A stretch of 52,441 nt of DNA from a virus (lineage: Duplodnaviria > Caudoviricetes): positions 1 through 52,441 of the IMG/VR virus record IMGVR_UViG_3300030333_005141; one strand, written 5' to 3'. The position numbers were made by a program, and so were the translations under genes. Below the pieces are notes generated by a model. That model saw only the letters and a program-made list of their open reading frames with translations. It did not search any database and was not told the origin of the DNA. Positions 14,696-36,247 of this stretch are shown piece after piece. Within the stretch, counting starts at the first letter, position 1. Every line of letters begins with the position of its first letter.

Positions 14696-17600
14696 ATGCG
14701 AGACTTACAAGATCTCTCCAGTGTTGTCCCTGAGTTTAAGCCTTTTTACAATCAGGACTCCACGGAGAGATTGTTAAATACATACTATCAAGCCCCTCAT
14801 CTTATTAACGATGATTTATTAAGTCAAATTAAAGACCATGCTGCTCATTATAATATTCCTTTTGAAGAAGAACGTGTTCAAAAAGATTTAGGCAAACAAG
14901 AATTTAATCTATTACGTGGCATAAGGCAAATGGGAGAAGGTTTCTTCTCTGGATTTACCACATTTAATGTAGGCGAACCAAGTAAAAATCCATACGAACG
15001 TATAATGCGTTCTGTTGGTGAATTAGGTGGGTTTGTAGGGTATTTCCCTACAGCTCCACTTAAGGCTTTAACTGCTGCTAAAGTCCTTAAATCTACTGCA
15101 TTACTAGATGCTGCTAGAGCATTAAGAGGTAATTCAGTACCATTATTCTTATCTAGAAAAGCAACAGAAAAGGTTGCTCCAATTGTAAGTAACACACTTA
15201 AAAAAGCTGCTCCAAATATAAAGAATGAAGCAGTCCAAGGTGCTGTTAAGTTTATGACTGATGATAAGCCATCACATATTGCTGAAGGTGCTTTTAATTT
15301 AGGATTAGCATCATCTATTAGTGCTTGGCAATTAGGTGTTAATGAAATGCTTAAAGCTGGTTTACATGGTGGTGTAACAGGTGGTGTATTTAGAGGAGTA
15401 GCAGAAATCTTTAATAAAGGGGGTATTCCTAAAACTGATATACTTACAGGTAAGCAAGTCCTTACAGCATCTCAAAAAGAAGACAAGATTTTACGAGCAG
15501 CAGCGTCATCGCTATATGATGGGTTGCAATCATCATACAGGGGTGATACGACACCAGAACAAATATATCACTACTTATTAGGTGCATACTTTGGTGCTAA
15601 TGAAACTACAGCTGGTCAGGCTAAATATATGAAGCATGTTCAGAAAGTAGAGAAAAAAGCCGCATCAAATGCTAAAGCATTAAAAAGGTTAGATGAAGAT
15701 GGAAAGCCTTATAATTGGGATACCGAAATATATGATCCAGAACTAGCAGATCCAGAAGGTTGGAAAGATTTAACTAAAACTGAACAAGAAGCTGTTTATG
15801 ATTATATATTAGCGAATCATGGAACATATGGCAAACAAGCAATGATGACCCATAGATTAATGCAAGAGGCGGGATTAGAGCCTAATGCTGAACAATTAAA
15901 ATTAATGGGTTCAAATTCTAAAGAACGTTATGAACTTGATGTTGCTATGAACAGAATAAACAAAAAGTTTGAAACCCAAAAAACAGCAGATAGAGCAGAA
16001 TCTATAGGTAGAAAATTTAAAGTTGTACCTGAAGCAGAATTAACTGAAGATTATATTAAAAATCAAGGTGATAGAGGTTATAAAAAAGGTAAACAACAAT
16101 TAGTTATACAAGAAAGGTCTTTAGTTAATATAAGAACTTCTAAAGATAGAGGCCCAACAAACGAAGATGCAGCTATTCCTTTAAAAGGTGCTGAAATAGA
16201 GAAATATAATCAATCTGTTAACTTAGATTTTCCTTTATTTGAGAATGAATTAGGAACATCTGTTAAATATGATGCTAAAAGTAAGAAAGTTATTGATGAT
16301 GGATCTCAAGCAAAAGCTGAATTTCCTTTAGAATTTGCAGATAAAGATATTAATGTTGAATATAAAGGTAAAGACAATAAGGTAATTAAAAGAGATTTTA
16401 AAGACTGGAGTCCTGAATTATATAAAATTAAAGAACAAGTAGAAGAAGCTACAGGATATAATTTTGATCTAGCTCGTATTGATATATTAGATAAAGATGA
16501 TTATACTAAATGGGAGCAAGAAAATGATCCTATTTTCCAAAGAACAGATAAAAGAGGTCCAGTTCAAGCAACAGTTTTAATAGGTGAAGGAAGACCATTA
16601 AATTTAAGACATAAAGATGGTAACAGAAATCAAATAGAATTAAATCCTGGCGACATATTTTTAAGTAAAGGTGTAACCAATGATAATATTAAATTTAAGT
16701 TTGATAAATCAAAAAAAGCTGGACGTACTTATAGAATAACTTTTAAACGTGTAAAAGCTAAGGAAACTCCTAGAGCATTAGGTGAAGGTCAAGTTTTATC
16801 TGATAATATATTAAAACTTTATACTAAAGGAATGAGTGATGATTTCTTAAACTTTAATAAAAAAGCCATAAATACTGCTTTTAAAGTTATGGAAGAAAAA
16901 TTTCCAGATAGTACTGTAGTTGCTCCAGAAAATTTAGGATTACATTTAAAAGATACTGCTCCAGAAACTTATGCTTATTTAATGCAAAAAATACAGAAGT
17001 TAAGAGCTCCTGTAGAAAAGGCTAGACAACAATTAGTTCAAGAAGATATTTTAGATGCTGATTTTGATAAACCTGATTTAGATAATGATATTGGAGTAAT
17101 GGGTGAGGCCGTAATACAGCGAAAAACAAACAAATTTGTTTCAGACTACCTAAGTGGTCAGTATGAAGGAATTGTTGATAAAACCAAGCGTTCTCTAAAG
17201 ATTCAAGAATTAAGAGGTCAATTAAAAGATGTTTTAAAGGAAAATTTTAAAGAATTTGATATAAATAACTCAAATAAGATAGATTCTGACAAATTTATAG
17301 CAGATGTAGAAAAGAAACTTGGTGGAATAAAGTTTGGTGAAGAAGCTAGAGGTGATTTAAGACAATTATTAATGCGTCAAAATCAAACAAAACCTTTACA
17401 AAAATTATCTTTAAATATTGATGCAAAACCAAGCGGGATAGTCAAAAGTGGAGATACTATTATTATAGGTATCCAAAATCCTGATGGTATTTATTCTAAA
17501 AGAAATAAAGCTGGTGTTGATGAGTTTCAATTAGAATCCCCTAAACAAATAGACCATATATGGAAAGAAATTGCTCCAAAAGGAGAAGCTAATGATAATG

Positions 17601-20600
17601 TTTATATGGTTGCAGATAAGGTTATATTTGTTACTAAAAAGGGTGGAAGAGAAATTGAATTACAAGATATAAACAAAAGAACAAATTATACAGGTAGTGC
17701 TAGATGGGATGATGCAGCTGCTGCTAAAGAAGGTTCTAAAATAAAATCTATGCTTTTAGAAGAAGCTCATAATAGAGGTTATTATTTTAATGGTGGTAAA
17801 GGTGATAGTGGAAAAATGTATTTCTTTAAATACCACCCTTCATCTCAAGGATTGACAGCTCCTCAATTAAAAACTAAAGTTGATGGTGTTCTTATTGAAT
17901 ATTACGAAGGATTAAAACAAAGACATATAGATAGTGGTTCAGAAAAACCATATATGAGTTTTAAACAATTTCAAGATCAATACAATGCAATGAAAAAAGA
18001 ATTTGTTGCTGAACATCAACTTAATCCTGCATTAAAATTTTCTACTGGCAGAATAAAAGAAGCAGAAAAATATTTTGATGAAGGTTTTTTATCTAATATT
18101 GCATGGGAAGCTGAATTATATGGTGTTTCTGCAACTAATGAAGGTTTTGCTAGATGGACTGGTTATAACTCTTCTATTAAAGATGCTAAAGGTTTTAACA
18201 AAAGAAACCAAATATGGATGACTGATGGATTTGAGGTTGATAAAAGCTTTTATGTAAACACAGTATCTAATATAATGAAAAATAAAGGGCATGATAATGC
18301 TCGTACTATTGCTGATGGTAAATTAAGATTTAGATTAATAAGAGATGCAGACCCTAAAGATATTGTATTAACAGATAAAGATAAAGCTGAAATATATACT
18401 GAATCAACTGATGGTATGATATTACTTGAAGAAAATCATATGGATGCTTTAAATCTTTCTATGGGTATGCCAAGTTCTGGTCAAAATAAATCGTTTATAG
18501 TAGATAGAGATCCAACTCATGGTGCTTTTTTGGGTAAATTTATGTTTCATAAAGCTAGTCCAGAAGCATCTAAGCATATGCGTGATGAAGGTGTTGAAAT
18601 GTATGTTTTTGATAGCGCAGCAAAAGAAAAAGGTTCAAGAGAATTTGGTGAATTAAAGGTTGATGATAATTTAAATGCAAAATATACTCACCCTACCCCT
18701 AAAGAAGTTGGTCCTTTATTTGAAGGTTCTGGAAAAGGTTATTATGAATTAAATATTGATGCTATCAAAGGTTCATTATCTGAAAAACAAAGTAGCCACA
18801 TGTTAGATGCTCAACTTATTCCTAAACAGGTTATGGCCAATCTTGTTCCTCATGCTCAATCTGAAATAGATAGGGCAGTAATGGATGATTTTTTCAATGA
18901 AACTATAGGTAAAAAATATAAAGGTAATGAACAATATAATGAATCATTTAAAAAAGCTCTTGAAAAAGATGTTCTATCTGAAACAGAGCAAGCAGAATTT
19001 TTAAGTAACTTTAATGATTTAGGTGTTATGGAAGTAATTGATGCTATTAAGAACCCAAATCACCCTGAGTTTGTTACTAAATTATATCAAAAGATTTTAG
19101 ATAAAAATATGAGCGATTTAGGGCTTGAATATGAGTCTGGGCAAGTAGATAGATATACTTATGAACAAGCTCATGCAGAAGCTGCTAATATTAGAACTGG
19201 TATAGATAGAATGATGGATGTTTATCCTTCTGTTGAAATCTTTTTATATAAAGATGTTAGAAACTTTATACAAACTGCAATGAAAAATTTTGTTGTTAAT
19301 AAAGTAATAAGACCTAAATGGGATTATTCAGTTTCAGTTAGAATGAGAGGTTTAGACCCGTGGTTAGCTAAACAAGATAATTTAAAAGATTTAAATATAG
19401 GTAAAGGTTTAATTGAAGATCCAATTACAGGTAAAAAGGTTCAATCTAAAACTTATCTTAGAAATAAATATGGTGTAGAAAATGCTGATGAATTGTTTTT
19501 CTTAGATGATAGATACAAACAAACAACTTGGGATATATCTGAATTTATTACACTTAAAAAGGGTCAAAAAAGTAAAATGACTTTAGAGGAAATATGGGAG
19601 CAGTATGGACCTAGAAGAGATGGGACATATCCTAGTGAAAGAATGAAGGAGTTTTTTAAAACAATATCTATTCGTGTTCCTATGGATTCTATATCTGGTG
19701 CTCATAAACTTACATTTGCTGGATTTACTGGCGTTGATGGTCATGGTGGAATATTTCATCCTAGAACTATGAGAGCATTGGGTGGTGCTGACCTTGATGG
19801 TGATAAAGCATTTGCTTTCTTTGGTATGAAACCTGAATGGAAAGAAATGTATCATAGTAATAAAATGGAATTTGCAAAAAAAGTTCCAGGTACTAATGAT
19901 TTTACTATTAGTGATAATAAAACAGCGGGAGTACCTAAAATAGGATTAGATATTTTAAAAGAAACATTTGCTGCTGATCCATCAAAAGCTGCAGATATGT
20001 TTATTATGGATAAATTAGAAGGTAAAAATACTGAAGAATTGACTTTACAAGACTTATTAACATTTACTACCGCTGGCGATAAAGATGTTATGGCATTAAA
20101 AGCAAGTCCTTTAGGTAAATATACTGTTAGTTCAAGAATGGACATCTCTCAACGTGCAGCAGAAGGTCGTGCTCATTTAGGTCCAGCAGTAAGCTCAAAA
20201 CAAATTTTAAATGCTATGTATAATGCTTTAACTAATAATGATGTTCAAAGATATGTTAATAAAAAAAGTAATTCAGACTCTATTTCTGCAGAAGAATTTG
20301 TTAAGTTAAGTGAAAAAGAACAACAAAAATACAAAGAAGACTATTCAGAAGAATTAACATTCATTCCAGAAGGTCATCAAGAACCAGTTCAAATTAGAAT
20401 TACACCAAGAGAAGATTTAACATATGCTAGAGAACTGCAAAGAGCACAAATTGCATTTGGTTCTGACCCGCTTGATGAATTAGGTTTATCTGGAATAGAT
20501 AGATATTTTGACCTTTCATGGCATAGTATGTTTAAAACAGAAATAGTTGGAGCTGATCCTAAAACGGTTGACCCTAATATTCTAAGAAGTTTTGAACCTC

Positions 20601-23600
20601 ATAAGCATGCTAAGCAAGGATTATATAAAATATTTAAAGATTTTAATAGCGCTTATTTTAGTAAAAATTGGGTAGATGGAAGAAGATGGCATGCTACTGA
20701 AATAGCAGAAATGTCTAGAGCTATTACAAAATTAAATAGTAATCAAATGGATACTATGTTACCTCAAATGGTTAAAATATTAAAAGATATAGATTTTTCT
20801 GATGATATATCATCTAGAATATCTCTTAACAAATTAGATGCATCTTATGATTATCATCAAAAAGAAGTTGTTCCTAGATTACAAGAGCTAAATAACAGAT
20901 TATTAGATGTTGATGGCAATAAAATATCTGGAGGTGTTTTAGGAAGAGGGTATTTAGATGCTAAAGGTGTAGATTGGTCTAAAGGTAAAGGTTTTGCCTC
21001 TCCAAAAAATCCAATTATAGATGTAATGCTTTCTAAAAAACTTTTCGATGTAAATGAACGGTTAAAATATATTTTACCAGAACATAATGGTGCAGTTAAT
21101 TTTGAAAAACTATTTAAAGACAACTTTAAAAAGACTAAAGATTTTTATTGGCAGGCTAACCCTTCGTTTTATAAATCTGAAATATTAAAAAATGGTGGTG
21201 TAGAAAAATATAATGAATATAGAAGGCATGAGCAAGATTTTAGAAGAGAACAAATAGAACAATTATATAGAGATGCAACTGAGTTTATGCAATATAATGC
21301 TATGGATAGAAATTCGGCATTAAGAACAATAGAAGCTTTAGAAGAGTATTATAATGCTGGTGGATCTGCAGAATTTGCTGAACGTATAAGCAAAGAAGTA
21401 GAATATATTAAGCAGGTCGATATGGAAAGTAAGGTACGTAGCATAAAAGAAGAAGTGCTTAATAGTGATGAATATAAGTCTTTAAGTGAAAAAGAACAGA
21501 GAAAAGTATATAACACTTTAGAAGTTAAAGAAAAAACTTCAGGTTTAAGTGATAGAGATGAAATTAATTTGTTAATTAGAAAGTTTAAGTATGCTAACTC
21601 TTGGAAAGCAAAATTTGAACCTAATATGCAAGATCCAGAGAACCCTGGTATGATGACTTTAGCAGAGTCTAAGTTATTTGACACACTTATGTTGTCCTCT
21701 TATTATAGAGGTCCAGGTAATCAGCAATTAGTACAATGGCAAAAATTACCTGCTAATATGAAAAAGTTATTAAGTCCCTATATAAAAACATTAAAATATG
21801 AAAACTCTGGAACTTATTTCCATAAAACGGGTTTAAGTAGCGCCTATATTACAGACGCTTCAATTAAAAACTTTTTAGAAGGATATGCTAATGAATTTAG
21901 AAAAGTATATACTGATCCATCTGAGTCTATTGATGTTGATTTTAAAAAGGTATTGACCACAAAAGAAAAAGAAACTAAAGATGGTGTTGAGGTCCCTAAA
22001 TTACTATACGAAGAGGATTATGTTGGTATGGGGACATTAAGAGAAAAGGCAGTAGCTAAATTAAATAAAGATGAAATTCAATTAGTTGATGAATTGGCTG
22101 GACATATACAACATTATAGAGATAGTTTTAATGAAGGTGGTTTAACTTTAAATAAAATTGCTAGAAAAGTTGTTAAAAAAAATGTAGATGCGATGACAAT
22201 AGATGATTACAGGGTCTTAAATGGATATTTTAGACAAATGAGATCAGGTAATATGTTTATTAGTCCAGGTAAACTAACAGCAGAAGGTGCTGTAAGGTTA
22301 TCTGAAAGGCATCATATGCTGTTTCCTAGAATGGTTTCTGATGAGCAAATTGTAAAAGACTTTAAACTATTTGAAGAAAGAGGTTTGTTCCAAAATTATA
22401 ACGGAGAATGGGTTGAAGGAATGACTGGCAGACCTTCTCATTTTATAGAACATACACAATATGCTATTGGAACTATTCAAGATTACGCTACAAAATTAAA
22501 AGAAGATGAAATTAAAGCGTTTAATGAAAGAGTAAGTGAATTAACAGGTTATGATACAATAGAGAATGGTGATGCCTTTATTGAGGTTGCTACTGCTTTA
22601 AAAGATTATAATTATGTAAGAGACCCTAAAACTACATTTAGATCAGAAAATGATCGTTCAGTAGCTACAGAAGTTGCTGTTAAAAATTTAAAGGAGGCGT
22701 ATGAAAAAGCTGATTGGGAAAATGTCAAGGATACTAAAATTAAAGTCACTGTCAAAGCTGAGCCTGGTCCAAAAGGCCAAGAAATGGGCGGTATCATTGA
22801 AAGGACTGGTAAAGAAATTGTTGCATCAATAGATAAAGTTTTAACAGAACGTTCTATTGAGGTAATGAAATGGATTAAAGGGGACCATTGGGAATATATT
22901 AATGGTCAATGGGTAGAAGGTAACAATCCGTTAAAAAAATTATTTAAAAAAGACAAAGAAGGCAATATACTGTACCATGGTGATTCTAATGAGGTCCCTA
23001 TTATAGATATGCAAAAATTTTCTCGTTTAATGTTTGACCATATGAAAGCTGGAAAACAAATGGATATGAAGCTTGGTATGGATAATATGAGATATATTAA
23101 TAGAAACTTAAGAATTGAAATCTTAAAAGAAGAAGCACAAAGACCAGAATTTACAGAAAAACAAAAAAATGGTATTTTGAAGATAATTAAAAATCTATCT
23201 GATAGGCCTATAGAATCAACAGGTGTGATAGATCATAAGAATTACCATCCTCATATGGTTGAAAATAAAACTTTTGCTAGAGAATCTTTAGTTAAACAAT
23301 TAAATAAATTGATTGAAAAAAGAGATAAAGGTGAAGTAGATGCAGATATATTTGACAAAGAAGCTGCAAGTTTAATACATAGACACAAAACATTAACTGG
23401 TGAATGGTATATTGATGATATAGTAGATAATCAATTGTTTGAGACTGCATTGCAAAAAATCAATGAAAAGAAAATGGATGCTCCAGAAATAAAGCAAATG
23501 CTTAGCTCTCCTACAACTGGAAATATGATGAGTCGTACATCTATGCTTGCGGGATTCAAAAGAGATTTAGGGGCATGGGATGTATATCAAGCTAATTTAA

Positions 23601-25096
23601 TTGATGCTTATTTTAGACAAATGGGGCAAGCGGTATCCACTCACATGTTAGGTCAATTTAAAAATCATTTAAAAAAGATTCATAAAACAGAACCCGAACA
23701 AGTTACTGCTTGGGGTAATTGGATGCAAGATTATATATCTAGAAGTTTAGGTTCTCCTTCTAAAATACCTGAAGCTTGGATGGACCCAAATAGTCCTATG
23801 AAAGTTAGAGGTACTCCTTATTCTTGGTTTGCTGATAATCACGTAGCAGATCTTCTTAATAGAGTTAAAAAGAATATGGGCTTTAAAGGTGATGAAAGAT
23901 TACCTGAAGAATTAAGAGGTATAAATGAATGGGATTTAAGACACTGGTCTAATTTAGAAGCTAAATATCAGCTTGCTACATTACTTGCTCACCCTAAATC
24001 TGCTGTAGCTAATATATTTGGTGGTACATTACATACTATACAATCTGTTGGTTGGAAAAATTGGAAGAATGCTAAGAATATTACTTGGCTTAAAAAAGCA
24101 ATAGGTGGAGATAAAGTTCCAACTTGGGAAACAATGAAAGATGCTGAAAAATGGACTATTGGTCATGGTGTTGTTCCTGACTTTATATTAAATGAGGCTC
24201 AAACTAATCCTATATTTAAAAAAGGAAAATATAAGGCATTTTTAGAAGATGCATTGAAAAAAATACAAAAAGATCCATCTGTTAAAGATGAAACTTTACT
24301 TGATATTGCTAAAAGACACAATATTACTAAAAGCATGTTTGATAAAGCTGCTTGGTTTATGAGAGAGCCTGAAAGAATTTTAAGAAGAGATTCTTTTATT
24401 GCTCATTATTTACAAGCCAGAGAATTGTATGGGCATGCTAATATGGAATTAAATCATCCTATGTTAATTCATATGGCTAAAAAAGGTGTACAAGCAACAC
24501 AGTTCTTATATAGTGCACCGTTCAGACCAGCATTTAGTAATACTTCTCTTGGTAAAGTTATGACAAGATTCCAGACTTGGGCTTGGAACTCTGTTAGATT
24601 TAGAAATGATGTATATAGAGCAGCGAAAATATATGGTTTTAGACAAGGTACTCCTGCTTTTGCAAGATATAAAAGACAAGTTCTTACAGACATGTTTGTA
24701 TTTGGCTTGGCTAATGTATTTGCTTATTCTTTATTTGAATCTGCAATGCCTCAACCTTATGGTTGGTTTCAAGATACTGCAGATTGGGTATTCGGAAACG
24801 AACAAGAAAGAGATAGAGCATTCTTTGGGCAGTGGCCAACCGCAGTAGCTCCGCTCCAAATGGTTACTCCGCCATCTTTGCGATTGGTCCCTGCCACATT
24901 CAATGCTGTATTAAATAATGATTTTAGTAGAATCAGTGATTACCAATTATGGACAATGTTTCCTTTTGGAAGATTAGCTAGAGATACTAAAGGTATTATT
25001 GAAAACCCAATGAGAACTGTTGAAAAGACAACTGGTATACCTTATATGCAATTTGCCCGAGAAGCTACCAAATACAGAGAAAAAGATGAAGATTAG
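14696..25096 (+). CDS. Giant virion protein containing a single-chain two-barrel (DPBB) DNA-dependent RNA polymerase
   Basis: 3466 aa; R1660-V-P then G1696GADLDGDK (metal-binding DxDGD loop); upstream T1238-D-G and downstream lysines fit the second barrel; last gene of the ejection cluster. Confidence 0.8.
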   Translation: MRDLQDLSSVVPEFKPFYNQDSTERLLNTYYQAPHLINDDLLSQIKDHAAHYNIPFEEERVQKDLGKQEFNLLRGIRQMGEGFFSGFTTFNVGEPSKNPYERIMRSVGELGGFVGYFPTAPLKALTAAKVLKSTALLDAARALRGNSVPLFLSRKATEKVAPIVSNTLKKAAPNIKNEAVQGAVKFMTDDKPSHIAEGAFNLGLASSISAWQLGVNEMLKAGLHGGVTGGVFRGVAEIFNKGGIPKTDILTGKQVLTASQKEDKILRAAASSLYDGLQSSYRGDTTPEQIYHYLLGAYFGANETTAGQAKYMKHVQKVEKKAASNAKALKRLDEDGKPYNWDTEIYDPELADPEGWKDLTKTEQEAVYDYILANHGTYGKQAMMTHRLMQEAGLEPNAEQLKLMGSNSKERYELDVAMNRINKKFETQKTADRAESIGRKFKVVPEAELTEDYIKNQGDRGYKKGKQQLVIQERSLVNIRTSKDRGPTNEDAAIPLKGAEIEKYNQSVNLDFPLFENELGTSVKYDAKSKKVIDDGSQAKAEFPLEFADKDINVEYKGKDNKVIKRDFKDWSPELYKIKEQVEEATGYNFDLARIDILDKDDYTKWEQENDPIFQRTDKRGPVQATVLIGEGRPLNLRHKDGNRNQIELNPGDIFLSKGVTNDNIKFKFDKSKKAGRTYRITFKRVKAKETPRALGEGQVLSDNILKLYTKGMSDDFLNFNKKAINTAFKVMEEKFPDSTVVAPENLGLHLKDTAPETYAYLMQKIQKLRAPVEKARQQLVQEDILDADFDKPDLDNDIGVMGEAVIQRKTNKFVSDYLSGQYEGIVDKTKRSLKIQELRGQLKDVLKENFKEFDINNSNKIDSDKFIADVEKKLGGIKFGEEARGDLRQLLMRQNQTKPLQKLSLNIDAKPSGIVKSGDTIIIGIQNPDGIYSKRNKAGVDEFQLESPKQIDHIWKEIAPKGEANDNVYMVADKVIFVTKKGGREIELQDINKRTNYTGSARWDDAAAAKEGSKIKSMLLEEAHNRGYYFNGGKGDSGKMYFFKYHPSSQGLTAPQLKTKVDGVLIEYYEGLKQRHIDSGSEKPYMSFKQFQDQYNAMKKEFVAEHQLNPALKFSTGRIKEAEKYFDEGFLSNIAWEAELYGVSATNEGFARWTGYNSSIKDAKGFNKRNQIWMTDGFEVDKSFYVNTVSNIMKNKGHDNARTIADGKLRFRLIRDADPKDIVLTDKDKAEIYTESTDGMILLEENHMDALNLSMGMPSSGQNKSFIVDRDPTHGAFLGKFMFHKASPEASKHMRDEGVEMYVFDSAAKEKGSREFGELKVDDNLNAKYTHPTPKEVGPLFEGSGKGYYELNIDAIKGSLSEKQSSHMLDAQLIPKQVMANLVPHAQSEIDRAVMDDFFNETIGKKYKGNEQYNESFKKALEKDVLSETEQAEFLSNFNDLGVMEVIDAIKNPNHPEFVTKLYQKILDKNMSDLGLEYESGQVDRYTYEQAHAEAANIRTGIDRMMDVYPSVEIFLYKDVRNFIQTAMKNFVVNKVIRPKWDYSVSVRMRGLDPWLAKQDNLKDLNIGKGLIEDPITGKKVQSKTYLRNKYGVENADELFFLDDRYKQTTWDISEFITLKKGQKSKMTLEEIWEQYGPRRDGTYPSERMKEFFKTISIRVPMDSISGAHKLTFAGFTGVDGHGGIFHPRTMRALGGADLDGDKAFAFFGMKPEWKEMYHSNKMEFAKKVPGTNDFTISDNKTAGVPKIGLDILKETFAADPSKAADMFIMDKLEGKNTEELTLQDLLTFTTAGDKDVMALKASPLGKYTVSSRMDISQRAAEGRAHLGPAVSSKQILNAMYNALTNNDVQRYVNKKSNSDSISAEEFVKLSEKEQQKYKEDYSEELTFIPEGHQEPVQIRITPREDLTYARELQRAQIAFGSDPLDELGLSGIDRYFDLSWHSMFKTEIVGADPKTVDPNILRSFEPHKHAKQGLYKIFKDFNSAYFSKNWVDGRRWHATEIAEMSRAITKLNSNQMDTMLPQMVKILKDIDFSDDISSRISLNKLDASYDYHQKEVVPRLQELNNRLLDVDGNKISGGVLGRGYLDAKGVDWSKGKGFASPKNPIIDVMLSKKLFDVNERLKYILPEHNGAVNFEKLFKDNFKKTKDFYWQANPSFYKSEILKNGGVEKYNEYRRHEQDFRREQIEQLYRDATEFMQYNAMDRNSALRTIEALEEYYNAGGSAEFAERISKEVEYIKQVDMESKVRSIKEEVLNSDEYKSLSEKEQRKVYNTLEVKEKTSGLSDRDEINLLIRKFKYANSWKAKFEPNMQDPENPGMMTLAESKLFDTLMLSSYYRGPGNQQLVQWQKLPANMKKLLSPYIKTLKYENSGTYFHKTGLSSAYITDASIKNFLEGYANEFRKVYTDPSESIDVDFKKVLTTKEKETKDGVEVPKLLYEEDYVGMGTLREKAVAKLNKDEIQLVDELAGHIQHYRDSFNEGGLTLNKIARKVVKKNVDAMTIDDYRVLNGYFRQMRSGNMFISPGKLTAEGAVRLSERHHMLFPRMVSDEQIVKDFKLFEERGLFQNYNGEWVEGMTGRPSHFIEHTQYAIGTIQDYATKLKEDEIKAFNERVSELTGYDTIENGDAFIEVATALKDYNYVRDPKTTFRSENDRSVATEVAVKNLKEAYEKADWENVKDTKIKVTVKAEPGPKGQEMGGIIERTGKEIVASIDKVLTERSIEVMKWIKGDHWEYINGQWVEGNNPLKKLFKKDKEGNILYHGDSNEVPIIDMQKFSRLMFDHMKAGKQMDMKLGMDNMRYINRNLRIEILKEEAQRPEFTEKQKNGILKIIKNLSDRPIESTGVIDHKNYHPHMVENKTFARESLVKQLNKLIEKRDKGEVDADIFDKEAASLIHRHKTLTGEWYIDDIVDNQLFETALQKINEKKMDAPEIKQMLSSPTTGNMMSRTSMLAGFKRDLGAWDVYQANLIDAYFRQMGQAVSTHMLGQFKNHLKKIHKTEPEQVTAWGNWMQDYISRSLGSPSKIPEAWMDPNSPMKVRGTPYSWFADNHVADLLNRVKKNMGFKGDERLPEELRGINEWDLRHWSNLEAKYQLATLLAHPKSAVANIFGGTLHTIQSVGWKNWKNAKNITWLKKAIGGDKVPTWETMKDAEKWTIGHGVVPDFILNEAQTNPIFKKGKYKAFLEDALKKIQKDPSVKDETLLDIAKRHNITKSMFDKAAWFMREPERILRRDSFIAHYLQARELYGHANMELNHPMLIHMAKKGVQATQFLYSAPFRPAFSNTSLGKVMTRFQTWAWNSVRFRNDVYRAAKIYGFRQGTPAFARYKRQVLTDMFVFGLANVFAYSLFESAMPQPYGWFQDTADWVFGNEQERDRAFFGQWPTAVAPLQMVTPPSLRLVPATFNAVLNNDFSRISDYQLWTMFPFGRLARDTKGIIENPMRTVEKTTGIPYMQFAREATKYREKDED

Positions 25097-25322: not shown

Positions 25323-25343
25323 GGGGGAAATTAATCCCCCTTT
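25323..25343. terminator. Hairpin at the convergence of the two transcription arms, probable terminator
   Basis: GGGGGA-aattaa-TCCCCC followed by TTT, between convergent gene blocks. Confidence 0.55.
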
Positions 25344-25406: not shown

Positions 25407-25658
25407 TTAAGTGATTTGCTGTTGAATAACCATTCTAAACTTGCCAAATTCAAGAGTTATTTCATCGACTCCCCATCGTATCTGTCTAACAGTTACGTTT
25501 TCTGGAACCGTTTCTAAACTCTCTTCCATTGCCTTTAATATACTCTGTCCGAAGACAAATTTCCAAGCAATTTCTCCCATTTGCTCTTCATCTTGCCTTT
25601 GAAAACTGTCTCCAATATATTCTTTAGCATGTTGGCTAGGCGTTTTTTCCATTGTCAC
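25407..25658 (-). CDS. Hypothetical protein
   Basis: 83-aa ORF overlapping the upstream gene end, GAGG upstream. Confidence 0.6.
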   Translation of the reverse strand: MTMEKTPSQHAKEYIGDSFQRQDEEQMGEIAWKFVFGQSILKAMEESLETVPENVTVRQIRWGVDEITLEFGKFRMVIQQQIT

Positions 25659-26118
25659 TTTCAGCCTCCTCTTCTAACTTTAACATCTTACTTGCTCTTT
25701 CTTCTATTGTAGGCTCATTAACGGACCATTCACTTTTTATCTTAGTTTTAGATAATTGTCGTTCTGCACTAACTTGTTCATCGATTTCTTGTCTTTCAAG
25801 CATCTTAACAAGTTCTTCTTCATGATCTATCATGCCCCATAATAGTGTAAGATATACTATTACATCAACGATTCGACCTCTTACATCCTCTCGTTGACTT
25901 TGATGTCCTTTTACATATGATTGTATTCCATCTATATGTTTTAAGAGATAAGTCATTAATATTTGTTCTGGACTTAACCCTTGTAGTTCTGCTATTCTAT
26001 CAAAATTAGCAAAAACATTTTGTTTGTTTTGAGCATATTCTTCTTGACCTTGTAATCTTACTGTTCTTACCTGATCAAATATATCCTCAACTAGTTCTGT
26101 ATGAAGTTTTAAGTTCAT
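25636..26118 (-). CDS. All-alpha NTP pyrophosphohydrolase-like protein (DUF1599/Nmad1, MazG-like fold)
   Basis: EYA...NVFANF...YLLKH...EDVRGRIVDVIVYLTLL pattern of this phage family. Confidence 0.6.
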   Translation of the reverse strand: MNLKLHTELVEDIFDQVRTVRLQGQEEYAQNKQNVFANFDRIAELQGLSPEQILMTYLLKHIDGIQSYVKGHQSQREDVRGRIVDVIVYLTLLWGMIDHEEELVKMLERQEIDEQVSAERQLSKTKIKSEWSVNEPTIEERASKMLKLEEEAESDNGKNA

Positions 26119-26333
26119 TCTGGGCTCCTTTTATAGAGTATTGATGCGTATACATAATTATGCACCCACCAACATCTACCATTATCTGAAACATCCATAG
26201 CAGCCTGTTTTGCTCTTTGAGAAAAGCTTAAATGTCTATACTTTTTAGCTACAGTGTAATGTTTGCTTTTTTTATTGTTTTCTTTTTTCGCTATTGAGCG
26301 TTCTTTTGCAGATAAATCCACATAGTTTGCCAT
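26115..26333 (-). CDS. Hypothetical basic protein
   Basis: AAGGAG SD; 4-nt overlap with the next gene. Confidence 0.6.
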   Translation of the reverse strand: MANYVDLSAKERSIAKKENNKKSKHYTVAKKYRHLSFSQRAKQAAMDVSDNGRCWWVHNYVYASILYKRSPE

Positions 26334-26346
26334 GTATTACTCCTTT

Positions 26347-26667
26347 CTAAAAAGGTAAGTCTTCGTCTTTTACCTTCGTAATAGCATCTTCTAGTGATAA
26401 TCCCTGGTCCCTTAGTTTAAACAGCTCTTTGATTTGATCCCAATCCATTTCATGATATATTTCTTTATCTAATTGCTCTTCGTGAGCAGATAATGCAAAA
26501 AACATATTGTTTTGTTTTGGGTTATACCACCCTGCAAGACTAATTCGTGCTGTAGCAGGTATTGTTTTAGGTATTTCAATACTTCCCCTAAAATGTGGTT
26601 GTCTGTTTTCTTCTGTTGCGTCTTCATTTTTAATTAATTTAACGCTTCCTAGTTTTATATATGGCAT
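26347..26667 (-). CDS. Putative ssDNA-binding protein (DUF736-like) with SSB-type acidic tail
   Basis: KNE...QPHFRGSI...ISLAGW...FFALS beta pattern; C-terminus DEDLPF resembles the bacterial SSB tail DDDIPF. Confidence 0.55.
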   Translation of the reverse strand: MPYIKLGSVKLIKNEDATEENRQPHFRGSIEIPKTIPATARISLAGWYNPKQNNMFFALSAHEEQLDKEIYHEMDWDQIKELFKLRDQGLSLEDAITKVKDEDLPF

Positions 26668-26693
26668 AAGGACCTCTATTTGTTATGAGTTAA

Positions 26694-26707
26694 GGGGCTT
26701 TCGCCCC
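26694..26707 (-). promoter_or_regulatory. GC-rich GNRA-tetraloop hairpin (terminator or mRNA-stabilising element)
   Basis: Minus strand GGGGC-GAAA-GCCCC between two genes; only a short U run follows. Confidence 0.5.
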
Positions 26708-26720
26708 CTAAATCTACTTA

Positions 26721-26891
26721 TTATTTTATTACTCCGCAAGCCTCAATAAACTTATTATAATCGAATCTATTATTAGCAATTTTAAAATCTTCTGCTAATT
26801 CAGATGCAAGTTTAGCTATCGCTTCTGGATGTTTTGGTTGATGTTTTTTTATTGTTTTCGCTATCATTACGAAATATTTTTTTGTTAACAT
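26721..26891 (-). CDS. Small phage protein (56 aa, not in ORF track)
   Basis: GGAG SD; MLTKKYFVMIA...LAEDFKIANNRFDYNKFIEACG resembles a recurrent small phage family (N.RFD..KF..ACG). Confidence 0.7.
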   Translation of the reverse strand: MLTKKYFVMIAKTIKKHQPKHPEAIAKLASELAEDFKIANNRFDYNKFIEACGVIK

Positions 26892-26934
26892 TAGATACTC
26901 CCTTAATCTCCTCTAACTGAGGTAATTTAGAATC

Positions 26935-27021
26935 TCAACCATCTGAGTATCCACAATGTGGACATCCAAAGTTACAAGCCATGGCTGAAATATATTTATT
27001 GCAATTTAAACATTTGGTCAT
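26935..27021 (-). CDS. Zinc-finger microprotein (28 aa, not in ORF track)
   Basis: MTKCLNCNKYISAMACNFGCPHCGYSDG: CxxC...CPxCG. Confidence 0.6.
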   Translation of the reverse strand: MTKCLNCNKYISAMACNFGCPHCGYSDG

Positions 27022-27029
27022 TTGATACT

Positions 27030-27245
27030 TCATGCACCAATCCTTTTTAAAGCAGTGTCTAATACAGGTTTAATATCGTCTGGCAAAGACTCAAAATGAG
27101 CTGCCATTAAATCGTATGCTTGATACCATTTAAGTGATGTTGCTGTTAGCCTCATTACTTCTTGTTGCAAGAGCTCTACTTGCCTCTCTAGCTGCTTTCT
27201 TGACATCTGACTTAATTGTTTCTTGGTGATTCTGTTTTCTGGCAT
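27030..27245 (-). CDS. Hypothetical coiled-coil protein
   Basis: ATG 27245 (MPENRI) has a GAGGAG SD; preferred to the track start at 27329. Confidence 0.55.
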   Translation of the reverse strand: MPENRITKKQLSQMSRKQLERQVELLQQEVMRLTATSLKWYQAYDLMAAHFESLPDDIKPVLDTALKRIGA

Positions 27246-27501
27246 AGTTTTCTCCTCTAGTTTCAGGATAATGCTGTTGACATTTCCTTCTAGATCTTGA
27301 TATATTAAATGGGGATGAAATTTTTCCATCTTTCCATAATCTCATTAAATTTCTAGCTGATAATGTTTTTATATTAACTGAAGGTTTGAGCGCAGCTAAT
27401 TGCCACGCCCAAATTGCCCAAATTAAATCTACATCACTATCTGCTAGTTTAGGTTTTGCTATTATAAAACCTTTTACTTGATTTACCATATTAACTCTCA
27501 A
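27130..27501 (-). CDS. Hypothetical phage protein, possible DNA-binding
   Basis: P.LADSD..LI...W...SRSRRKCQ..YP..RG..Y pattern recalled from phage hypotheticals. Confidence 0.65.
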   Translation of the reverse strand: MRVNMVNQVKGFIIAKPKLADSDVDLIWAIWAWQLAALKPSVNIKTLSARNLMRLWKDGKISSPFNISRSRRKCQQHYPETRGENYARKQNHQETIKSDVKKAAREASRALATRSNEANSNIT

Positions 27502-27973
27502 AGTTGTCTCCCTTCGCTAGTTTTCTTAATATATAGCTTTTTGCGTTCACACTTTGTGTGTCAAGGTAGTTTAACAGATTAGTATATTCTTTATCCGTTA
27601 GGTGTCCTTTCCTTGTGTTACATCGTCTACATATTATAGTAAGGTTTTTAGGAGTAGAGTCACCGCCAAGACTGAGAGGATACATATGGTCGCAAACAAT
27701 GTTAGATACAACAAGCGTATCAGTACAATACCTGCATTGCTTACCATAAAATCTAAGAAATAAATTTCTAATCTCTTCCAGGCTGATGTTAAATTCAACT
27801 TCATACTCTTTACTCCGTTTCTTTAGTGATGATTTTAATGTAGAAGTTTTCTTCATAAGTCTATGGAAAATCTTTTTGGCATGTGTGCCATGGTGCTTTT
27901 GTAGCAACTTTATAAACTGATCTTCCCAATATCTTACTCGTCCTCTTCTAACTATATTCTTTTTATAAGCCAT
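27491..27973 (-). CDS. HNH endonuclease
   Basis: CRYC...DHMYPLSLGG...NLTIICRRCNTRKG. Confidence 0.9.
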   Translation of the reverse strand: MAYKKNIVRRGRVRYWEDQFIKLLQKHHGTHAKKIFHRLMKKTSTLKSSLKKRSKEYEVEFNISLEEIRNLFLRFYGKQCRYCTDTLVVSNIVCDHMYPLSLGGDSTPKNLTIICRRCNTRKGHLTDKEYTNLLNYLDTQSVNAKSYILRKLAKGDNFES

Positions 27974-27981
27974 TTATGCTC

Positions 27982-28137
27982 CTACATTACAGCAAAAGTA
28001 AGCATCATATGTAATTTAAATAGCTTAAAAGTTAATGTGACACTATTATCTTGCCCATAAGTAAGTCCAAAGCCTATTAAAGATAATAATACAACTAAAA
28101 AGCCATTTTCACTTTTTTGTATTTCTATAATAGACAT
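27982..28137 (-). CDS. Small hydrophobic protein (51 aa, not in ORF track)
   Basis: ATG overlaps the upstream TAA, AGGAGG upstream; MSIIEIQKSENGFLVVLLSLIGFGLTYG... Confidence 0.55.
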   Translation of the reverse strand: MSIIEIQKSENGFLVVLLSLIGFGLTYGQDNSVTLTFKLFKLHMMLTFAVM

Positions 28138-28721
28138 TAAGACCTCCTTATTCGTTTAACTTTTTCTAATTTAAAACCTGTAATACCTAAACCATCTTTT
28201 GAAGCTTCTAGAAAGTCTCTTCTGGCTTTCTTTTTGTCTATTTCGACTTTATATCTCTTATAATTATCGCTAATAGATTCTTCATCTGTTATAACTATAG
28301 GTCCCCAAGTTTCATATACTTTATAACGTGCAGTATCTGTAATTAAAATCCCGTCATTACCGCAAGTTTCTACAATAAGTGGTATCAACTCTTTATTAAA
28401 GTAATCTTCTGTTCTAGAAATAGCGTTTTTTCTGTTTCTTAAACGCTTTATTTCATCAGTTAATGCTTTAATTTCTGCATCAATATTACCTTTTTTCTTG
28501 TTCATTTCTACAATCATATGATCAAGACCACTTACTTTAGTTGTAAGTTCATTTTTTATTTCAGCTATACCTTTTTCTATACGTTTTTCTTCCTCTTCCC
28601 ATTCGTTATCCTGTTCTATTGAACATTCAATTGAATTACGTTTTAAATCAAGGTCGTCTTTTTCTAACTGAAGTTCTATCAATGATCCAACCAGATCTCT
28701 TGATGTTAGCTTAGTAGCCAT
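28137..28721 (-). CDS. Siphovirus Gp157-like / Mu Gam-like coiled-coil protein
   Basis: ATG 28721 with GGAGG SD; EIKRLRNRK coiled coil and C-terminal V.I.DE..I...Y.....IDKK...G..I.G..L pattern; recombination-module context. Confidence 0.7.
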   Translation of the reverse strand: MATKLTSRDLVGSLIELQLEKDDLDLKRNSIECSIEQDNEWEEEEKRIEKGIAEIKNELTTKVSGLDHMIVEMNKKKGNIDAEIKALTDEIKRLRNRKNAISRTEDYFNKELIPLIVETCGNDGILITDTARYKVYETWGPIVITDEESISDNYKRYKVEIDKKKARRDFLEASKDGLGITGFKLEKVKRIRRS

Positions 28722-31945: not shown

Positions 31946-31960
31946 ATTACTCCTAAATTT

Positions 31961-32184
31961 AGAGACACCTATCCCATTGTTTGAATAAACAGTTGTGCGA
32001 GTAGGATAGAGATAGATGTCTCTGATTACAAGGTAGAGCTAGCGCTTTAAATAGTGCCTATCTAGCTTTTAGTCTCGAGACCAGCAACTACCTTAGTTAT
32101 ACTTGTTATCCCAAGGGGGACGCCATCGCAAAGGGATCATACGACCTGCTAGATTTGCTTACAGGAGCATCTGGTGGAGGCGTC
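31961..32184. ncRNA. Three tandem structured elements between the E1 and Sak4-like genes (candidate structured RNA)
   Basis: Closing stems 31961-73/32011-23, 32030-36/32088-94 and 32119-24/32179-84, each with internal hairpins. Confidence 0.5.
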
Positions 32185-32193
32185 ACTTGCCCA

Positions 32194-35096: not shown

Positions 35097-35110
35097 ATAT
35101 TCTCCAATCT

Positions 35111-35170
35111 TAAAGAGAGAATGCTTGGGTCTCCTCCTCGACAGATTCCCAAGACTTACATCTCACTTTA
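35111..35170. promoter_or_regulatory. Long interrupted hairpin between the Ubl and E2 genes
   Basis: TAAAGAGAGA/TCTCACTTTA and CTTGGG/CCCAAG stems; ends just upstream of the E2 SD. Confidence 0.5.
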
Positions 35171-35185
35171 TATATTAATAGTTTA

Positions 35186-35431: not shown

Positions 35432-35432
35432 A

Positions 35433-36240: not shown

Positions 36241-36247
36241 AGCAATC

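What the first reader, a model, noticed from the sequence alone, without database searches (positions are those of the whole stretch)
18150..20500. Single-chain two-barrel RNA polymerase inside a 3466-aa ejection protein of a 52-kb phage
Seen: SIR1660VP...RALG1696GADLDGDKAF (19781-19807), and about 460 aa upstream EST1238DG...GQNKSF...LGKFMFHK. Known: RxP plus DxDGD marks the catalytic double-psi barrel of cellular RNAP, QDE-1-type RdRPs, SPbeta YonO and the crAss-like phi14:2 virion RNAP. crAss-like enzymes typically read DFDID and sit in roughly 100-kb genomes. Inference: this is a packaged RNAP injected to transcribe the early arm, in a phage about half that size with a DLDGD loop and strong SD usage, so possibly a separate lineage.
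Basis: partly seen in the sequence, partly recalled or inferred. Interest (0 to 1): 0.85.

Follow-up and report, generated by a model that had tools for sequence, protein, structure and literature searches.

The report
Giant phage protein hiding RNA polymerase
A 52-kb marine phage encodes a 3466-residue protein whose middle third is predicted to fold like the single-chain RNA polymerases of crAss-like phages and of eukaryotic RNA interference, so a large, unstudied group of ocean phages probably carries its own transcription enzyme.

Summary
ORF 14696-25096 (+) encodes 3466 aa and holds the quoted motifs, with DLDGD at aa 1699-1703. The window is a complete 52.4-kb phage genome.

An AlphaFold2 model of aa 1101-2280 is confident (pLDDT 87, pTM 0.86). 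In an exhaustive comparison with 48,161 PDB chains, only six reach Z>=8. All six are single-chain two-barrel RNA polymerases: QDE-1 14.1, phi14:2 gp66 12.9, maize RDR2 12.5, P23-45 gp96 11.1 (two crystal forms) and P74 gp62 10.9.

GADLDGD is exact in 121 of 121 homologues. RxP and several Lys/Asp of the first barrel are invariant. Pfam, PHROGs, PDB sequences and INPHARED phages give no match.

The family is large and metagenomic, partly marine by source labels: 295 clusters at 50% identity, 257 IMG/VR loci, contigs about 52-56 kb. It does not look crAss-like in motif, TerL or capsid.

Packaging and injection are inferred from gene position and architecture only.

Verdict: a real, new family of virion-type two-barrel RNAP. 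It is a new variant of a known kind.

The parts
14696..25096 (+). Giant ORF, 3466 aa. It is the last gene of the plus-strand structural arm.
   Evidence: An SD-like ACGGAG lies upstream. Full-length homologues run 1938-3654 aa.
14696..15745 (+). Conserved N-terminal module (aa 1-350), function unknown. It is a candidate packaging or ejection module.
   Evidence: Aligned in 87-100% of 150 homologues at 37-49% identity. Atlas gives leads only: LPD22, LPD14 and P22 gp16, all <=0.90.
16265..16771 (+). Degenerate AlkB-like 2OG-Fe(II) oxygenase domain (aa ~524-692), inside the variable region aa ~400-800.
   Evidence: 32% identity over 400 aa to P0005, whose equivalent stretch is PF13532 at E 2.7e-26. 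HxD reads ExE and the distal His reads F in the window. The region aligns in only 3-24% of 150 homologues.
18092..20809 (+). Two-barrel RNA polymerase core (aa 1133-2038), the span that superposes on QDE-1.
   Evidence: AF2 pLDDT 87.2. Model 34..938 against QDE-1 647..1196: Z 14.1, 485 aligned. Against gp66: Z 12.9, 714 aligned, model 1..1121.
18185..18217 (+). Helix before the first barrel, carrying invariant N1168 K1169 R1170 Q1172. It is a candidate counterpart of QDE-1's DPBB1 auxiliary helix (R671, Q673).
   Evidence: Helix 64-74 of the model. Invariant columns. QDE-1 description read as passages of PMC9508822. The equivalence is inferred, not superposed residue by residue.
18320..18775 (+). 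First barrel (beta-subunit-like, DPBB1/DPBB-B), aa ~1209-1360, with invariant D1239 G1240 K1265 F1267 K1281 K1310 G1313 R1315.
   Evidence: Beta-rich segment 109-259 of the model. Invariants. It lies inside the span aligned to QDE-1 and gp66.
18872..19309 (+). Helical connector between the barrels (aa ~1393-1538).
   Evidence: Helices 293-438 of the model. gp66 and QDE-1 share a ~140-residue connector (passage of 10.1101/2020.03.07.982082).
19322..19825 (+). Second barrel (beta-prime-like, DPBB2/DPBB-A), aa ~1543-1710, with RVPMDS (1660-1665) and the catalytic loop.
   Evidence: Designed DPBB proteins 7dww_A (Z 6.0, 83 aligned of its 86 residues, rmsd 2.6) and 7dvc_A superpose on model 443-610. 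hhalign aligns this stretch with gp66's YRIPNQG...GSDFDIDK.
19790..19804 (+). DLDGD, the predicted Mg-binding aspartate triad D1699/D1701/D1703.
   Evidence: In more distant representatives positions 2 and 4 vary (DLDID, DLDAD, DYDGD and others) while the three Asp stay.
23693..25093 (+). C-terminal module (aa 3000-3466), the most conserved part of the family. It is all-alpha and has one hydrophobic segment at aa 3329-3347 (nt 24680-24736).
   Evidence: 48-63% identity across 150 homologues. AF2 pLDDT 69, with the last ~130 residues below 50. Foldseek against PDB gives no match at E<=0.001.
25323..25339 (+). Terminator-like hairpin in the convergent gap after the giant gene.
   Evidence: sequence seen.
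25407..38837 (-). Minus-strand arm: small ORFs, then ThiF/JAB-like, Sak4-like, primase-helicase, Gam-like and HNH genes. It is the presumed early/middle unit that an injected RNAP would read.
   Evidence: The convergent arrangement recurs downstream of the giant gene in related loci: HNH in 63 of 82, primase-helicase in 51 of 82.

Best explanation
The 3466-aa protein is a giant multi-domain ('polyvalent') virion protein. Its central part, aa ~1130-2040, is a single-chain two-barrel RNA polymerase of the QDE-1/gp66 type.

Shown:
- The fold contains two double-psi beta-barrels in one chain, in the order barrel 1, helical connector, barrel 2.
- The Asp triad DLDGD sits on barrel 2. One Asp and several Lys/Arg are invariant on barrel 1 and on the helix before it.
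- This core is conserved in a large family of ~52-56-kb metagenomic phages.
- The gene is the last one of the structural (late) arm.

Inferred:
- The protein is made late and packed into the capsid.
- It is ejected with the DNA through the short tail. The conserved N- and C-terminal modules serve packaging, passage or envelope contact.
- Its polymerase then transcribes the first genes of the minus-strand arm, independently of the host RNA polymerase, by two-metal catalysis at D1699/D1701/D1703 (plus D1239).
- The poorly conserved stretch aa ~400-800 is a slot for accessory cargo domains. Here it holds a degenerate AlkB-like domain. Relatives carry other accessory domains (DUF7831, SLOG) at other positions in the protein.
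For: Fold:
- AF2 of aa 1101-2280 with 62 sequences gives pLDDT 87.2 and pTM 0.86.
- Foldseek against PDB gives 10 matches at E<=0.001, all gp66 (1.1e-7) or QDE-1.
- The VIA second look puts only single-chain two-barrel RNAPs in its top 18 entries, Z 14.8 to 10.9.
- The VIA exhaustive search of 48,161 chains gives 6 chains at Z>=8: QDE-1 14.1, gp66 12.9 with 714 residues aligned, ZmRDR2 12.5, gp96 11.1 twice, and P74 gp62 10.9. The next row is at 7.5, a cellular RNAP largest subunit.
- Designed DPBB proteins fit model 443-610.

Active site:
- GADLDGD is exact in 121 of 121.
- Invariant: R1660, P1662, D1664, D1239, K1265, K1281, K1310, N1168-K-R-x-Q1172.
- QDE-1 uses one Asp of DPBB1 plus three of DPBB2, Lys/Arg of DPBB1, and an auxiliary helix with R671/Q673 (passages of PMC9508822).
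- hhalign of this family against 77 crAss-like sequences aligns RVPMDS...GGADLDGDKAF with YRIPNQG...GSDFDIDKMY in register (E 9.7e-5, probability 58%).

Virion role:
- The gene is co-oriented with and follows TerL, portal, capsid, tail fibre and two other giant genes. It ends at a hairpin facing the replication arm. This arrangement recurs in relatives.
- No other RNAP was seen among the 30 ORFs scanned with PHROGs or the 30 further ORFs scanned with Pfam.
- Homologues carry interchangeable accessory domains, AlkB, cpYpsA-SLOG and DUF7831, as described for packaged polyvalent proteins such as N4 vRNAP (passages of PMC5512222).
- phi14:2 gp66 is a proteomics-confirmed structural protein that sits between two other giant structural genes.
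Against: - There are no virion proteomics, no host and no expression data. Packaging and injection are inference only.
- No sequence method links the protein to any RNAP family: Pfam, PHROGs, phmmer and hmmsearch against PDB, and hhalign against the single gp66 sequence at probability 0.3.
- I had no model coordinates. The equivalence of D1239, K1265, K1281 and R1170/Q1172 with QDE-1 residues rests on domain position, not on a residue-level superposition.
- The bridge helix and trigger loop were not located.
- No conserved early-promoter motif was found. An 8-mer enriched in this genome is not enriched in relatives. Sigma-70-like sites are at chance level, 66 against 65.4 expected, which neither requires nor excludes host transcription of the early arm.
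- The N- and C-terminal modules match no known ejection-protein fold.
Confidence: 0.72

Rival explanations
1. It is a two-barrel RNA polymerase but not a virion enzyme. It is made after infection, or cleaved from the giant precursor, and transcribes middle or late genes, as the non-virion RNAPs of P23-45 (gp64) or phiKZ do.
For: P74 gp62 and P23-45 gp64 non-virion RNAPs are also among the top structural matches (Z 10.9-11.1). No direct evidence of packaging exists.
Against: The gene is the last one of the structural arm, not in the early arm. The polymerase is embedded between ~1100 N-terminal and ~1400 C-terminal residues that are conserved family-wide, an architecture known for virion RNAPs (N4 gp50, gp66, gp96). 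A phage whose only recognised RNAP is encoded late would otherwise have no use for it early.
Confidence: 0.12
2. The core works like QDE-1 on single-stranded templates. It would be an injected ssDNA- or RNA-templated RNA synthase that primes phage DNA replication or makes dsRNA, rather than a promoter-specific transcriptase.
For: The best Z-scores are to QDE-1 and RDR2, which copy RNA and ssDNA (abstract of PMC9508822). DLDGD is the catalytic motif of RDR-alpha enzymes (abstract of PMC3610679). No DNA polymerase gene was recognised in the ORFs scanned.
Against: gp66 has the same fold class, with more residues aligned (714) and Z within about 1 of QDE-1. It is a DNA-dependent RNAP that transcribes early genes (abstract of 10.1101/2020.03.07.982082). 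The genome has its own primase-helicase. Template preference cannot be read from a fold.
Confidence: 0.08
3. The two-barrel module is an inactive relic, and the protein is only a structural or ejection protein.
For: Another domain of the same protein, the AlkB-like one, has lost its metal ligands. gp66 crystallised with its motif in a non-catalytic conformation (passage).
Against: The Asp triad and about 50 other core positions are invariant across 62 sequences down to 27% identity. The triad persists in distant representatives while its neighbours vary. That is the pattern of purifying selection on catalysis.
Confidence: 0.03

Closest known systems
phi14:2 gp66, the virion RNA polymerase of crAss-like phages (PDB 6VR4)
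   Same: It is a single-chain two-barrel RNAP inside a giant protein of the structural gene block. It is the top Foldseek match (E 1.1e-7) and has the longest structural overlap (714 residues, Z 12.9, model 1..1121 against chain 808..1889). Both have a helical connector between the barrels. R-x-P ... D-x-D-x-D-K aligns in register. Other giant genes and a metallophosphoesterase lie nearby in both genomes.
   Different: The motif is DLDGD (121 of 121) against DFDID (75 of 77). There is no significant sequence similarity outside 59 columns. The protein is 3466 aa against 2180 aa, and the genome is 52 kb against ~100 kb. TerL and capsid find nothing in phi14:2. SD use is strong. Virion presence is not shown here.
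QDE-1 and RDR2, the eukaryotic RNA-interference RNA polymerases
   Same: They give the highest Z-scores (14.1-14.8 for QDE-1, 12.5-13.4 for RDR2; ~430-490 residues aligned). The barrel order and connector are the same. DLDGD is literally the RDR-alpha motif. Both have an invariant Asp in barrel 1 and an R-x-Q helix before it, as described for QDE-1.
   Different: Sequence identity is 9-12%. This is a phage protein with ~2500 extra residues. Template type is unknown. Z-scores for QDE-1 and gp66 differ by about 1, so which is nearer cannot be said.
P23-45 gp96, the virion RNAP fused to the tail tape measure protein, and gp64/gp62 non-virion RNAPs
   Same: A two-barrel RNAP fused into a giant virion protein, proposed to transcribe during DNA entry (passages of PMC10770324). 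Z is 10.9-11.1.
   Different: Fewer residues align (297-425). The fusion partner here is not a tape measure protein, and this genome shows no long-tail genes.
N4 gp50 (Schitoviridae), the giant ~3500-aa virion RNAP
   Same: The size is the same (3466 against ~3500 aa) and so is the three-part layout: N-terminal module, central polymerase, C-terminal module. Relatives show variable fused accessory domains (passages of PMC5512222; abstract of PMC13434306 in the listing).
   Different: As I recall, and from the reference title seen, the N4 polymerase is T7-like (right-hand fold), not two-barrel. The likeness would therefore be convergent in architecture, not homologous in the catalytic core.

Membership tests
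Two-barrel (DPBB) RNA polymerase superfamily | Two double-psi beta-barrel domains forming one active-site cleft | tested here: met
   The AF2 model superposes over both barrels on QDE-1, RDR2, gp66, gp96 and gp62 at Z 10.9-14.8. Designed DPBBs fit model 443-610.
Two-barrel (DPBB) RNA polymerase superfamily | DxDxD metal-binding triad on the beta-prime-like barrel, conserved in the family | tested here: met
   DLDGD is at aa 1699-1703. It is exact in 121 of 121 and invariant in 62 of 62. The triad is kept in 96 of 140 further representatives by a strict pattern, plus 4 of the 5 long ones that failed it. The other 39 are under 1700 aa and one long protein is unresolved.
Two-barrel (DPBB) RNA polymerase superfamily | Conserved basic residues (two Lys, or Gln/Arg/Lys in QDE-1) and one Asp on the beta-like barrel | tested here: inconclusive
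   D1239, K1265, K1281, K1310 and R1315 are invariant and lie on strands of the first barrel. No residue-level superposition was possible.
Two-barrel (DPBB) RNA polymerase superfamily | Template-dependent RNA synthesis | not testable with these tools
   This needs biochemistry.
Single-chain QDE-1/gp66-like clade | Both barrels in one chain, beta-like first, joined by a ~140-residue helical connector | tested here: met
   The order is barrel (109-259), helices (293-438), barrel (443-610) in the model. The connector is described for gp66 and QDE-1 in the passage.
crAss-like phage vRNAP (gp66 family, Crassvirales) | DFDID catalytic motif conserved in orthologues | tested here: not met
   The window and 120 homologues read DLDGD. 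75 of 77 gp66 relatives read DFDID followed by K. Some distant members of the present family read DLDID (10 of 140).
crAss-like phage vRNAP (gp66 family, Crassvirales) | Detectable sequence homology to gp66 | tested here: inconclusive
   hhalign against the single gp66 sequence gives probability 0.3. Profile against profile gives 58%, E 9.7e-5, over 59 columns at the catalytic loop only.
crAss-like phage vRNAP (gp66 family, Crassvirales) | Crassvirales-type TerL and capsid, genome ~100 kb | tested here: inconclusive
   The genome is 52.4 kb. TerL and capsid give no match in the whole phi14:2 record at E<=10 (the tool warns that an empty answer shows nothing). The best cultured TerL relatives are 25-28% identical and not crAss-like.
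crAss-like phage vRNAP (gp66 family, Crassvirales) | Presence in the virion and delivery into the host | not testable with these tools
   Only gene context is available.
N4-like vRNAP (Schitoviridae) | T7-like right-hand catalytic domain | tested here: inconclusive
   No T7-type RNAP family appears in Pfam or among the structural matches. The conserved core is accounted for by a two-barrel fold. Absence from a list is not exclusion.
Polyvalent proteins of phages (Iyer et al. 2017) | Giant multi-domain protein encoded with virion genes, with interchangeable effector domains among relatives | tested here: met
   The gene lies in the structural arm. Relatives carry AlkB (P0005), cpYpsA-SLOG (P0096) and DUF7831 (P0020). 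The region aa 400-800 aligns in only 3-24% of 150 homologues.
Polyvalent proteins of phages (Iyer et al. 2017) | LPD (large polyvalent protein associated) domains | tested here: inconclusive
   These are language-model leads only: LPD38 0.94, LPD22 0.90, LPD14 0.88. Pfam gives no hit.

The most novel reading that the evidence does not exclude
This abundant metagenomic (largely marine) phage family, not the crAss-like phages, holds the closest prokaryotic-virus relatives of the eukaryotic RNAi polymerases. It shares their canonical DLDGD loop (glycine at position 4), scores at least as high against QDE-1 and RDR2 as gp66 does, and has the R-x-Q auxiliary helix. On this reading it marks the phage lineage from which cellular RdRPs were captured. 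The giant protein would also be an independent, convergent re-invention of the N4-type 'polymerase inside a 3500-residue ejection protein' on a different catalytic fold.
Probability: 0.15. Interest if true: 0.85.

Novelty: new variant of a known kind. Interest (0 to 1): 0.68.

Why it matters
Virion-delivered two-barrel RNA polymerases are known experimentally from two phage groups: crAss-like phages and the Thermus P23-45 group. This finding adds a third, sequence-unrecognisable family. It is widespread: 295 clusters at 50% identity and 257 IMG/VR loci. It sits in small, ~52-kb phages of unknown host, found in metagenomes many of which are marine by their source labels.

- It would mean a sizeable share of these phages start infection independently of the host RNA polymerase.
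- It gives a compact, canonical-motif (DxDGD) relative for testing the proposed phage origin of eukaryotic RNAi polymerases.
- The N4-like 'giant polyvalent ejection protein with a polymerase in the middle' layout appears to have arisen on two unrelated polymerase folds.
- Annotation pipelines (Pfam, PHROGs) currently leave this 10-kb gene blank. The alignments made here could seed a family model.

Tried and rejected
Sequence searches that found nothing:
- P0001 against Pfam gave only sub-threshold EF-hand and GvpG hits. PHROGs gave 0 families.
- phmmer against PDB gave only a weak AlkBH3 stretch at E 0.67. hmmsearch of alignment A2 against PDB gave nothing relevant.
- tblastn against INPHARED phages found no match for the core (aa 1001-2500), the C-terminal 767 aa or the N-terminal 365 aa.
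- hhalign of A2 against the single gp66 sequence gave probability 0.3.

Other lines that led nowhere:
- The C-terminal module was folded (pLDDT 69) and searched with Foldseek against PDB. No match reached E<=0.001, so nothing can be said about an ejection-protein fold.
- Atlas searches of the C- and N-terminal parts gave only unnamed viral clusters and weak LPD and P22-gp16 leads.
- Rfam over the whole window gave 0 hits. ARAGORN found 0 tRNAs.
- Candidate early-promoter word TGGGCAAG occurs 6 times against 1.14 expected, 4 of them on the minus strand of the early arm. Its 9-mer is not enriched in 80 related loci: 14 occurrences against a mean of 7.4 for permuted words. I dropped it as a family feature.
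- The sigma-70 scan of 25000-39500 gave 66 sites against 65.4 expected, which is uninformative.
- Host: the genome-contig scan gave two distant hits (24-25% identity) on contigs labelled as Bacteroidota and Rhodothermales MAGs. This conflicts with the strong SD use here, so no host is claimed.
- Roseobacter phage CRP-810 is a weak capsid relative. Its 2016-aa protein has no DxDxD, so it is not a member.

Rejected readings:
- N4-type T7-like polymerase: no such match anywhere.
- PolD-like DNA polymerase: no PolD chain is among the listed matches, which is not an exclusion.

Literature: full-text searches found no paper describing this family. All 25 listed of the 39 'DLDGD' papers concern eukaryotic topics, nearly all RDRs. 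[quoted passage not shown]
Full report
WHAT IS THERE. The window is one complete virus record of 52,441 bases (CheckV 100%). It has a 101-nt terminal direct repeat, 1-101 = 52341-52441 at 99% identity. The plus strand carries TerL (41477-42967), portal (43013-45376), major capsid protein (46359-47870) and a metallophosphoesterase across the record ends. It then carries two giant ORFs (967-5517, 1516 aa; 5517-9683, 1388 aa), a tail-fibre-like gene (10422-11120) and, last, ORF 14696-25096 of 3466 aa. The minus strand (25407-38837) converges on it. That arm carries HNH, Gam-like, primase-helicase, Sak4-like, ThiF-like and many small ORFs.

IS IT MORE THAN CHANCE. A word-indexed search with aa 1150-2050 found 152 giant proteins. 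The 120 listed are 1938-3654 aa, and their longest contigs cluster at 52-57 kb. Many come from marine sources such as TARA. An exhaustive HMMER search with aa 1101-2280 found 295 representatives of 50%-identity clusters, 94 of them at E<=1e-30. IMG/VR holds 257 confirmed loci.

GADLDGD is letter-exact in 121 of 121 stored proteins. In a 62-sequence alignment of the core (27-53% identity to the window), the invariant positions include N1168 K1169 R1170 Q1172, D1239 G1240, K1265, K1281, K1310 G1313 R1315, R1660 P1662 D1664, G1696-D1703, R1814, R1825 and D1924 P1925 D1927.

Among the 140 further proteins, 96 match G[GAS]ADxDxD: 67 DLDGD, 10 DLDID, 3 DLDAD, 3 DNDGD, 2 DYDGD and others. Of the five long ones that fail this pattern, four have the triad with other flanks and one (P0202) is unresolved. 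The remaining 39 are under 1700 aa, mostly fragments that may not cover the site. The three aspartates are therefore held while positions 2 and 4 drift.

WHAT IT IS. No sequence method names the protein. Pfam, PHROGs, phmmer and hmmsearch against PDB sequences, and tblastn against 50,697 phage records all fail. Structure does name it.

AlphaFold2 on aa 1101-2280 with the 62-sequence alignment gave mean pLDDT 87.2 and pTM 0.86. Foldseek against the PDB returned 10 matches at E<=0.001, all phi14:2 gp66 (1.1e-7) or QDE-1. VIA-align on Foldseek's list placed only single-chain two-barrel RNAPs in the first 18 entries:
- QDE-1: Z 14.6-14.8, 461-498 residues aligned
- RDR2: Z 11.7-13.4
- gp66: Z 11.7, 706 aligned
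- P23-45 gp96: Z 11.1
- gp64/gp62: Z 10.9-11.1
Cellular RNAP largest subunits followed at about Z 7.5.

The independent, exhaustive VIA search of 48,161 representative chains gave only six chains at Z>=8, the same families: QDE-1 14.1; gp66 12.9 with 714 aligned over model 1..1121; ZmRDR2 12.5; gp96 11.1 twice; P74 gp62 10.9. A clear gap to 7.5 follows. In the same list, designed minimal DPBB proteins (7dww_A, 83 aligned of its 86 residues, rmsd 2.6; and 7dvc_A) and other DPBB domains (Cdc48-N, Pex1/6-N, UFD1) superpose on model 443-610. That span is aa 1543-1710, the barrel that ends in DLDGD.

The secondary-structure order is helix 64-74, beta-rich 109-259, helices 293-438, then beta-rich 443-610. 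It reproduces the order barrel 1, ~140-residue connector, barrel 2 described for gp66 and QDE-1 (passage). BFVD adds a model of this very protein (100% identity, unnamed), other unnamed viral proteins, and many crAss-like RNAP-bearing proteins (22 matches at E<=0.001).

ACTIVE SITE. QDE-1 uses three Asp of DPBB2 and one of DPBB1 for two-metal catalysis. It uses Q736/R738/K743/K767 of DPBB1, and R671/Q673 of an auxiliary helix before DPBB1, for product and NTP contacts (passages of PMC9508822). The present family has, in the corresponding domains, the invariant triad, an invariant Asp (D1239), Lys/Arg (K1265, K1281, K1310, R1315) on strands of barrel 1, and an invariant K-R-x-Q on the helix before it. 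I could not obtain coordinates, so these equivalences are inferred from domain position.

A local profile-profile comparison used 62 sequences of this family and crAss-like gp66-region ORFs from 77 of the 80 IMG/VR loci. It gave one hit: probability 58%, E 9.7e-5, 59 columns. It aligns RVPMDS...GGADLDGDKAF with YRIPNQG...GSDFDIDKMY in register.

HOW IT PROBABLY WORKS. Shown: fold, motif conservation, family size, gene position. Inferred: the protein is made late, packed, ejected with the DNA, and transcribes the first genes of the minus-strand arm. The reasons are these:
- It is the last gene of the structural arm and ends at a hairpin facing the replication arm. This arrangement recurs in relatives: HNH in 63 of 82 loci and primase-helicase in 51 of 82 loci downstream and convergent.
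- The polymerase is flanked by family-wide conserved N-terminal (aa 1-350) and C-terminal modules. The C-terminal module (aa 3000-3466) is the most conserved part, at 48-63% identity, with one hydrophobic segment at 3329-3347.
- No other RNAP was recognised in the ORFs scanned.
- The three experimentally studied precedents are all injected: gp66, P23-45 gp96 and N4 gp50.

The stretch aa ~400-800 aligns in only 3-24% of 150 homologues. Here it holds an AlkB-like domain, homologous to the PF13532 domain of P0005, but with HxD changed to ExE and the distal His changed to Phe. Other members carry a cpYpsA-SLOG domain or DUF7831. This is the 'polyvalent protein' pattern described for packaged phage proteins, including N4 vRNAP (passages of PMC5512222).

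AGAINST, OR UNTESTED. There are no proteomics, no host and no transcripts. No conserved promoter word was found. The sigma-70-like scan is at chance. The C-terminal model is only moderately confident and matches nothing. The N- and C-terminal Atlas hits are leads only.

COMPARISON WITH THE KNOWN. The core works like, and is structurally a member of, the single-chain QDE-1/gp66-type two-barrel RNAPs. It is not a member of the crAss-like gp66 family as defined by sequence:
- The motif differs: DLDGD against DFDID in 75 of 77.
- Homology is detectable only at the catalytic loop.
- TerL and capsid find nothing in phi14:2 (an empty answer is weak evidence).
- The best cultured TerL relatives are unrelated phages at 25-28% identity.
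- The capsid has only two weak hits in cultured phages.
- The genome is half the size and SD use is strong (36 of 48).

Z-scores for QDE-1 and gp66 differ by about 1 in the exhaustive search, so which is nearer is open. In size and three-part layout the protein parallels N4 gp50. From recall and a reference title, the N4 polymerase is T7-like, so that likeness would be convergent.

NOVELTY AND VERDICT. Seven full-text searches found no description of this family. I rate it a new variant of a known kind: a new, abundant, sequence-unrecognised family of presumably virion-delivered two-barrel RNAP in a distinct lineage of small phages from largely marine metagenomes. Confidence is about 0.9 that the core is a two-barrel RNA polymerase, and 0.72 for the full statement including virion delivery. 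Interest is 0.68.

Noticed in passing
window 16265-16771 (aa ~524-692 of the giant protein): An AlkB-like 2OG-Fe(II) oxygenase domain, homologous to a bona fide PF13532 domain in relative P0005 (32% identity over 400 aa). Its metal ligands are replaced: HxD reads ExE and the distal His reads Phe. It is probably catalytically dead, yet retained.
   Followed up: partly
homologues P0020 (aa 1530-1640), P0096 (aa 1307-1455), P0005 (aa 508-666): Different family members carry different accessory domains in the giant protein: DUF7831 (E 3.4e-36), circularly permuted YpsA-SLOG (E 8e-25) and AlkB (E 2.7e-26). Two of them lie close to or inside the polymerase region.
   Followed up: no
window 32194-32874 (-) and 32855-33748 (-): Overlapping genes for a ThiF-family E1-like protein (PF00899, E 4e-17) and a protein with a weak Prok-JAB hit (E 0.0018, below cut-off). 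This is a possible ubiquitin-like activation and deconjugation pair in the replication arm.
   Followed up: no
window 35691-36357, 37591-37890, 31946-32193, 38838-39397: These are long stretches in the minus-strand arm without any ORF of 60 aa or more. They look G+C-richer and hairpin-rich, yet match no Rfam family. The word TGGGCAAG occurs 6 times in the window against 1.14 expected, four of them on the minus strand of this arm. It is not enriched in relatives.
   Followed up: partly
window 1-101 and 52341-52441: A 101-nt direct terminal repeat at 99% identity, consistent with a complete genome of about 52,340 bp. The metallophosphoesterase gene runs across the record ends.
   Followed up: partly
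whole window: No DNA polymerase and no tRNA were recognised. Replication genes found are primase-helicase, Sak4-like, Gam-like and HNH only. The 474-aa ORF 33672-35096 (-) and the 1516-aa and 1388-aa giants have no family match.
   Followed up: partly
L085 (contig of 52,893 bases) and L084: The only two hits in 185,579 species genomes are distant relatives (24-25% identity) on contigs binned into Bacteroidota and Rhodothermales MAGs. The window itself uses strong SD sites (36 of 48), which does not suggest a Bacteroidota host. The host range of the family is open.
   Followed up: no
distant family members, e.g. P0242, P0261: Position 4 of the catalytic loop is Gly in the window's close relatives, but Ile or Ala in some distant members (DLDID 10, DLDAD 3 of 140). 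Ile there is the crAss-like state, which was said to give gp66 a non-catalytic loop conformation.
   Followed up: partly
window 23693-25093 (aa 3000-3466): The most conserved part of the whole protein (up to 63% identity across the family) is the part AlphaFold predicts worst: the last ~130 residues have pLDDT below 50. This would fit a segment that folds only in an oligomer or a membrane.
   Followed up: partly
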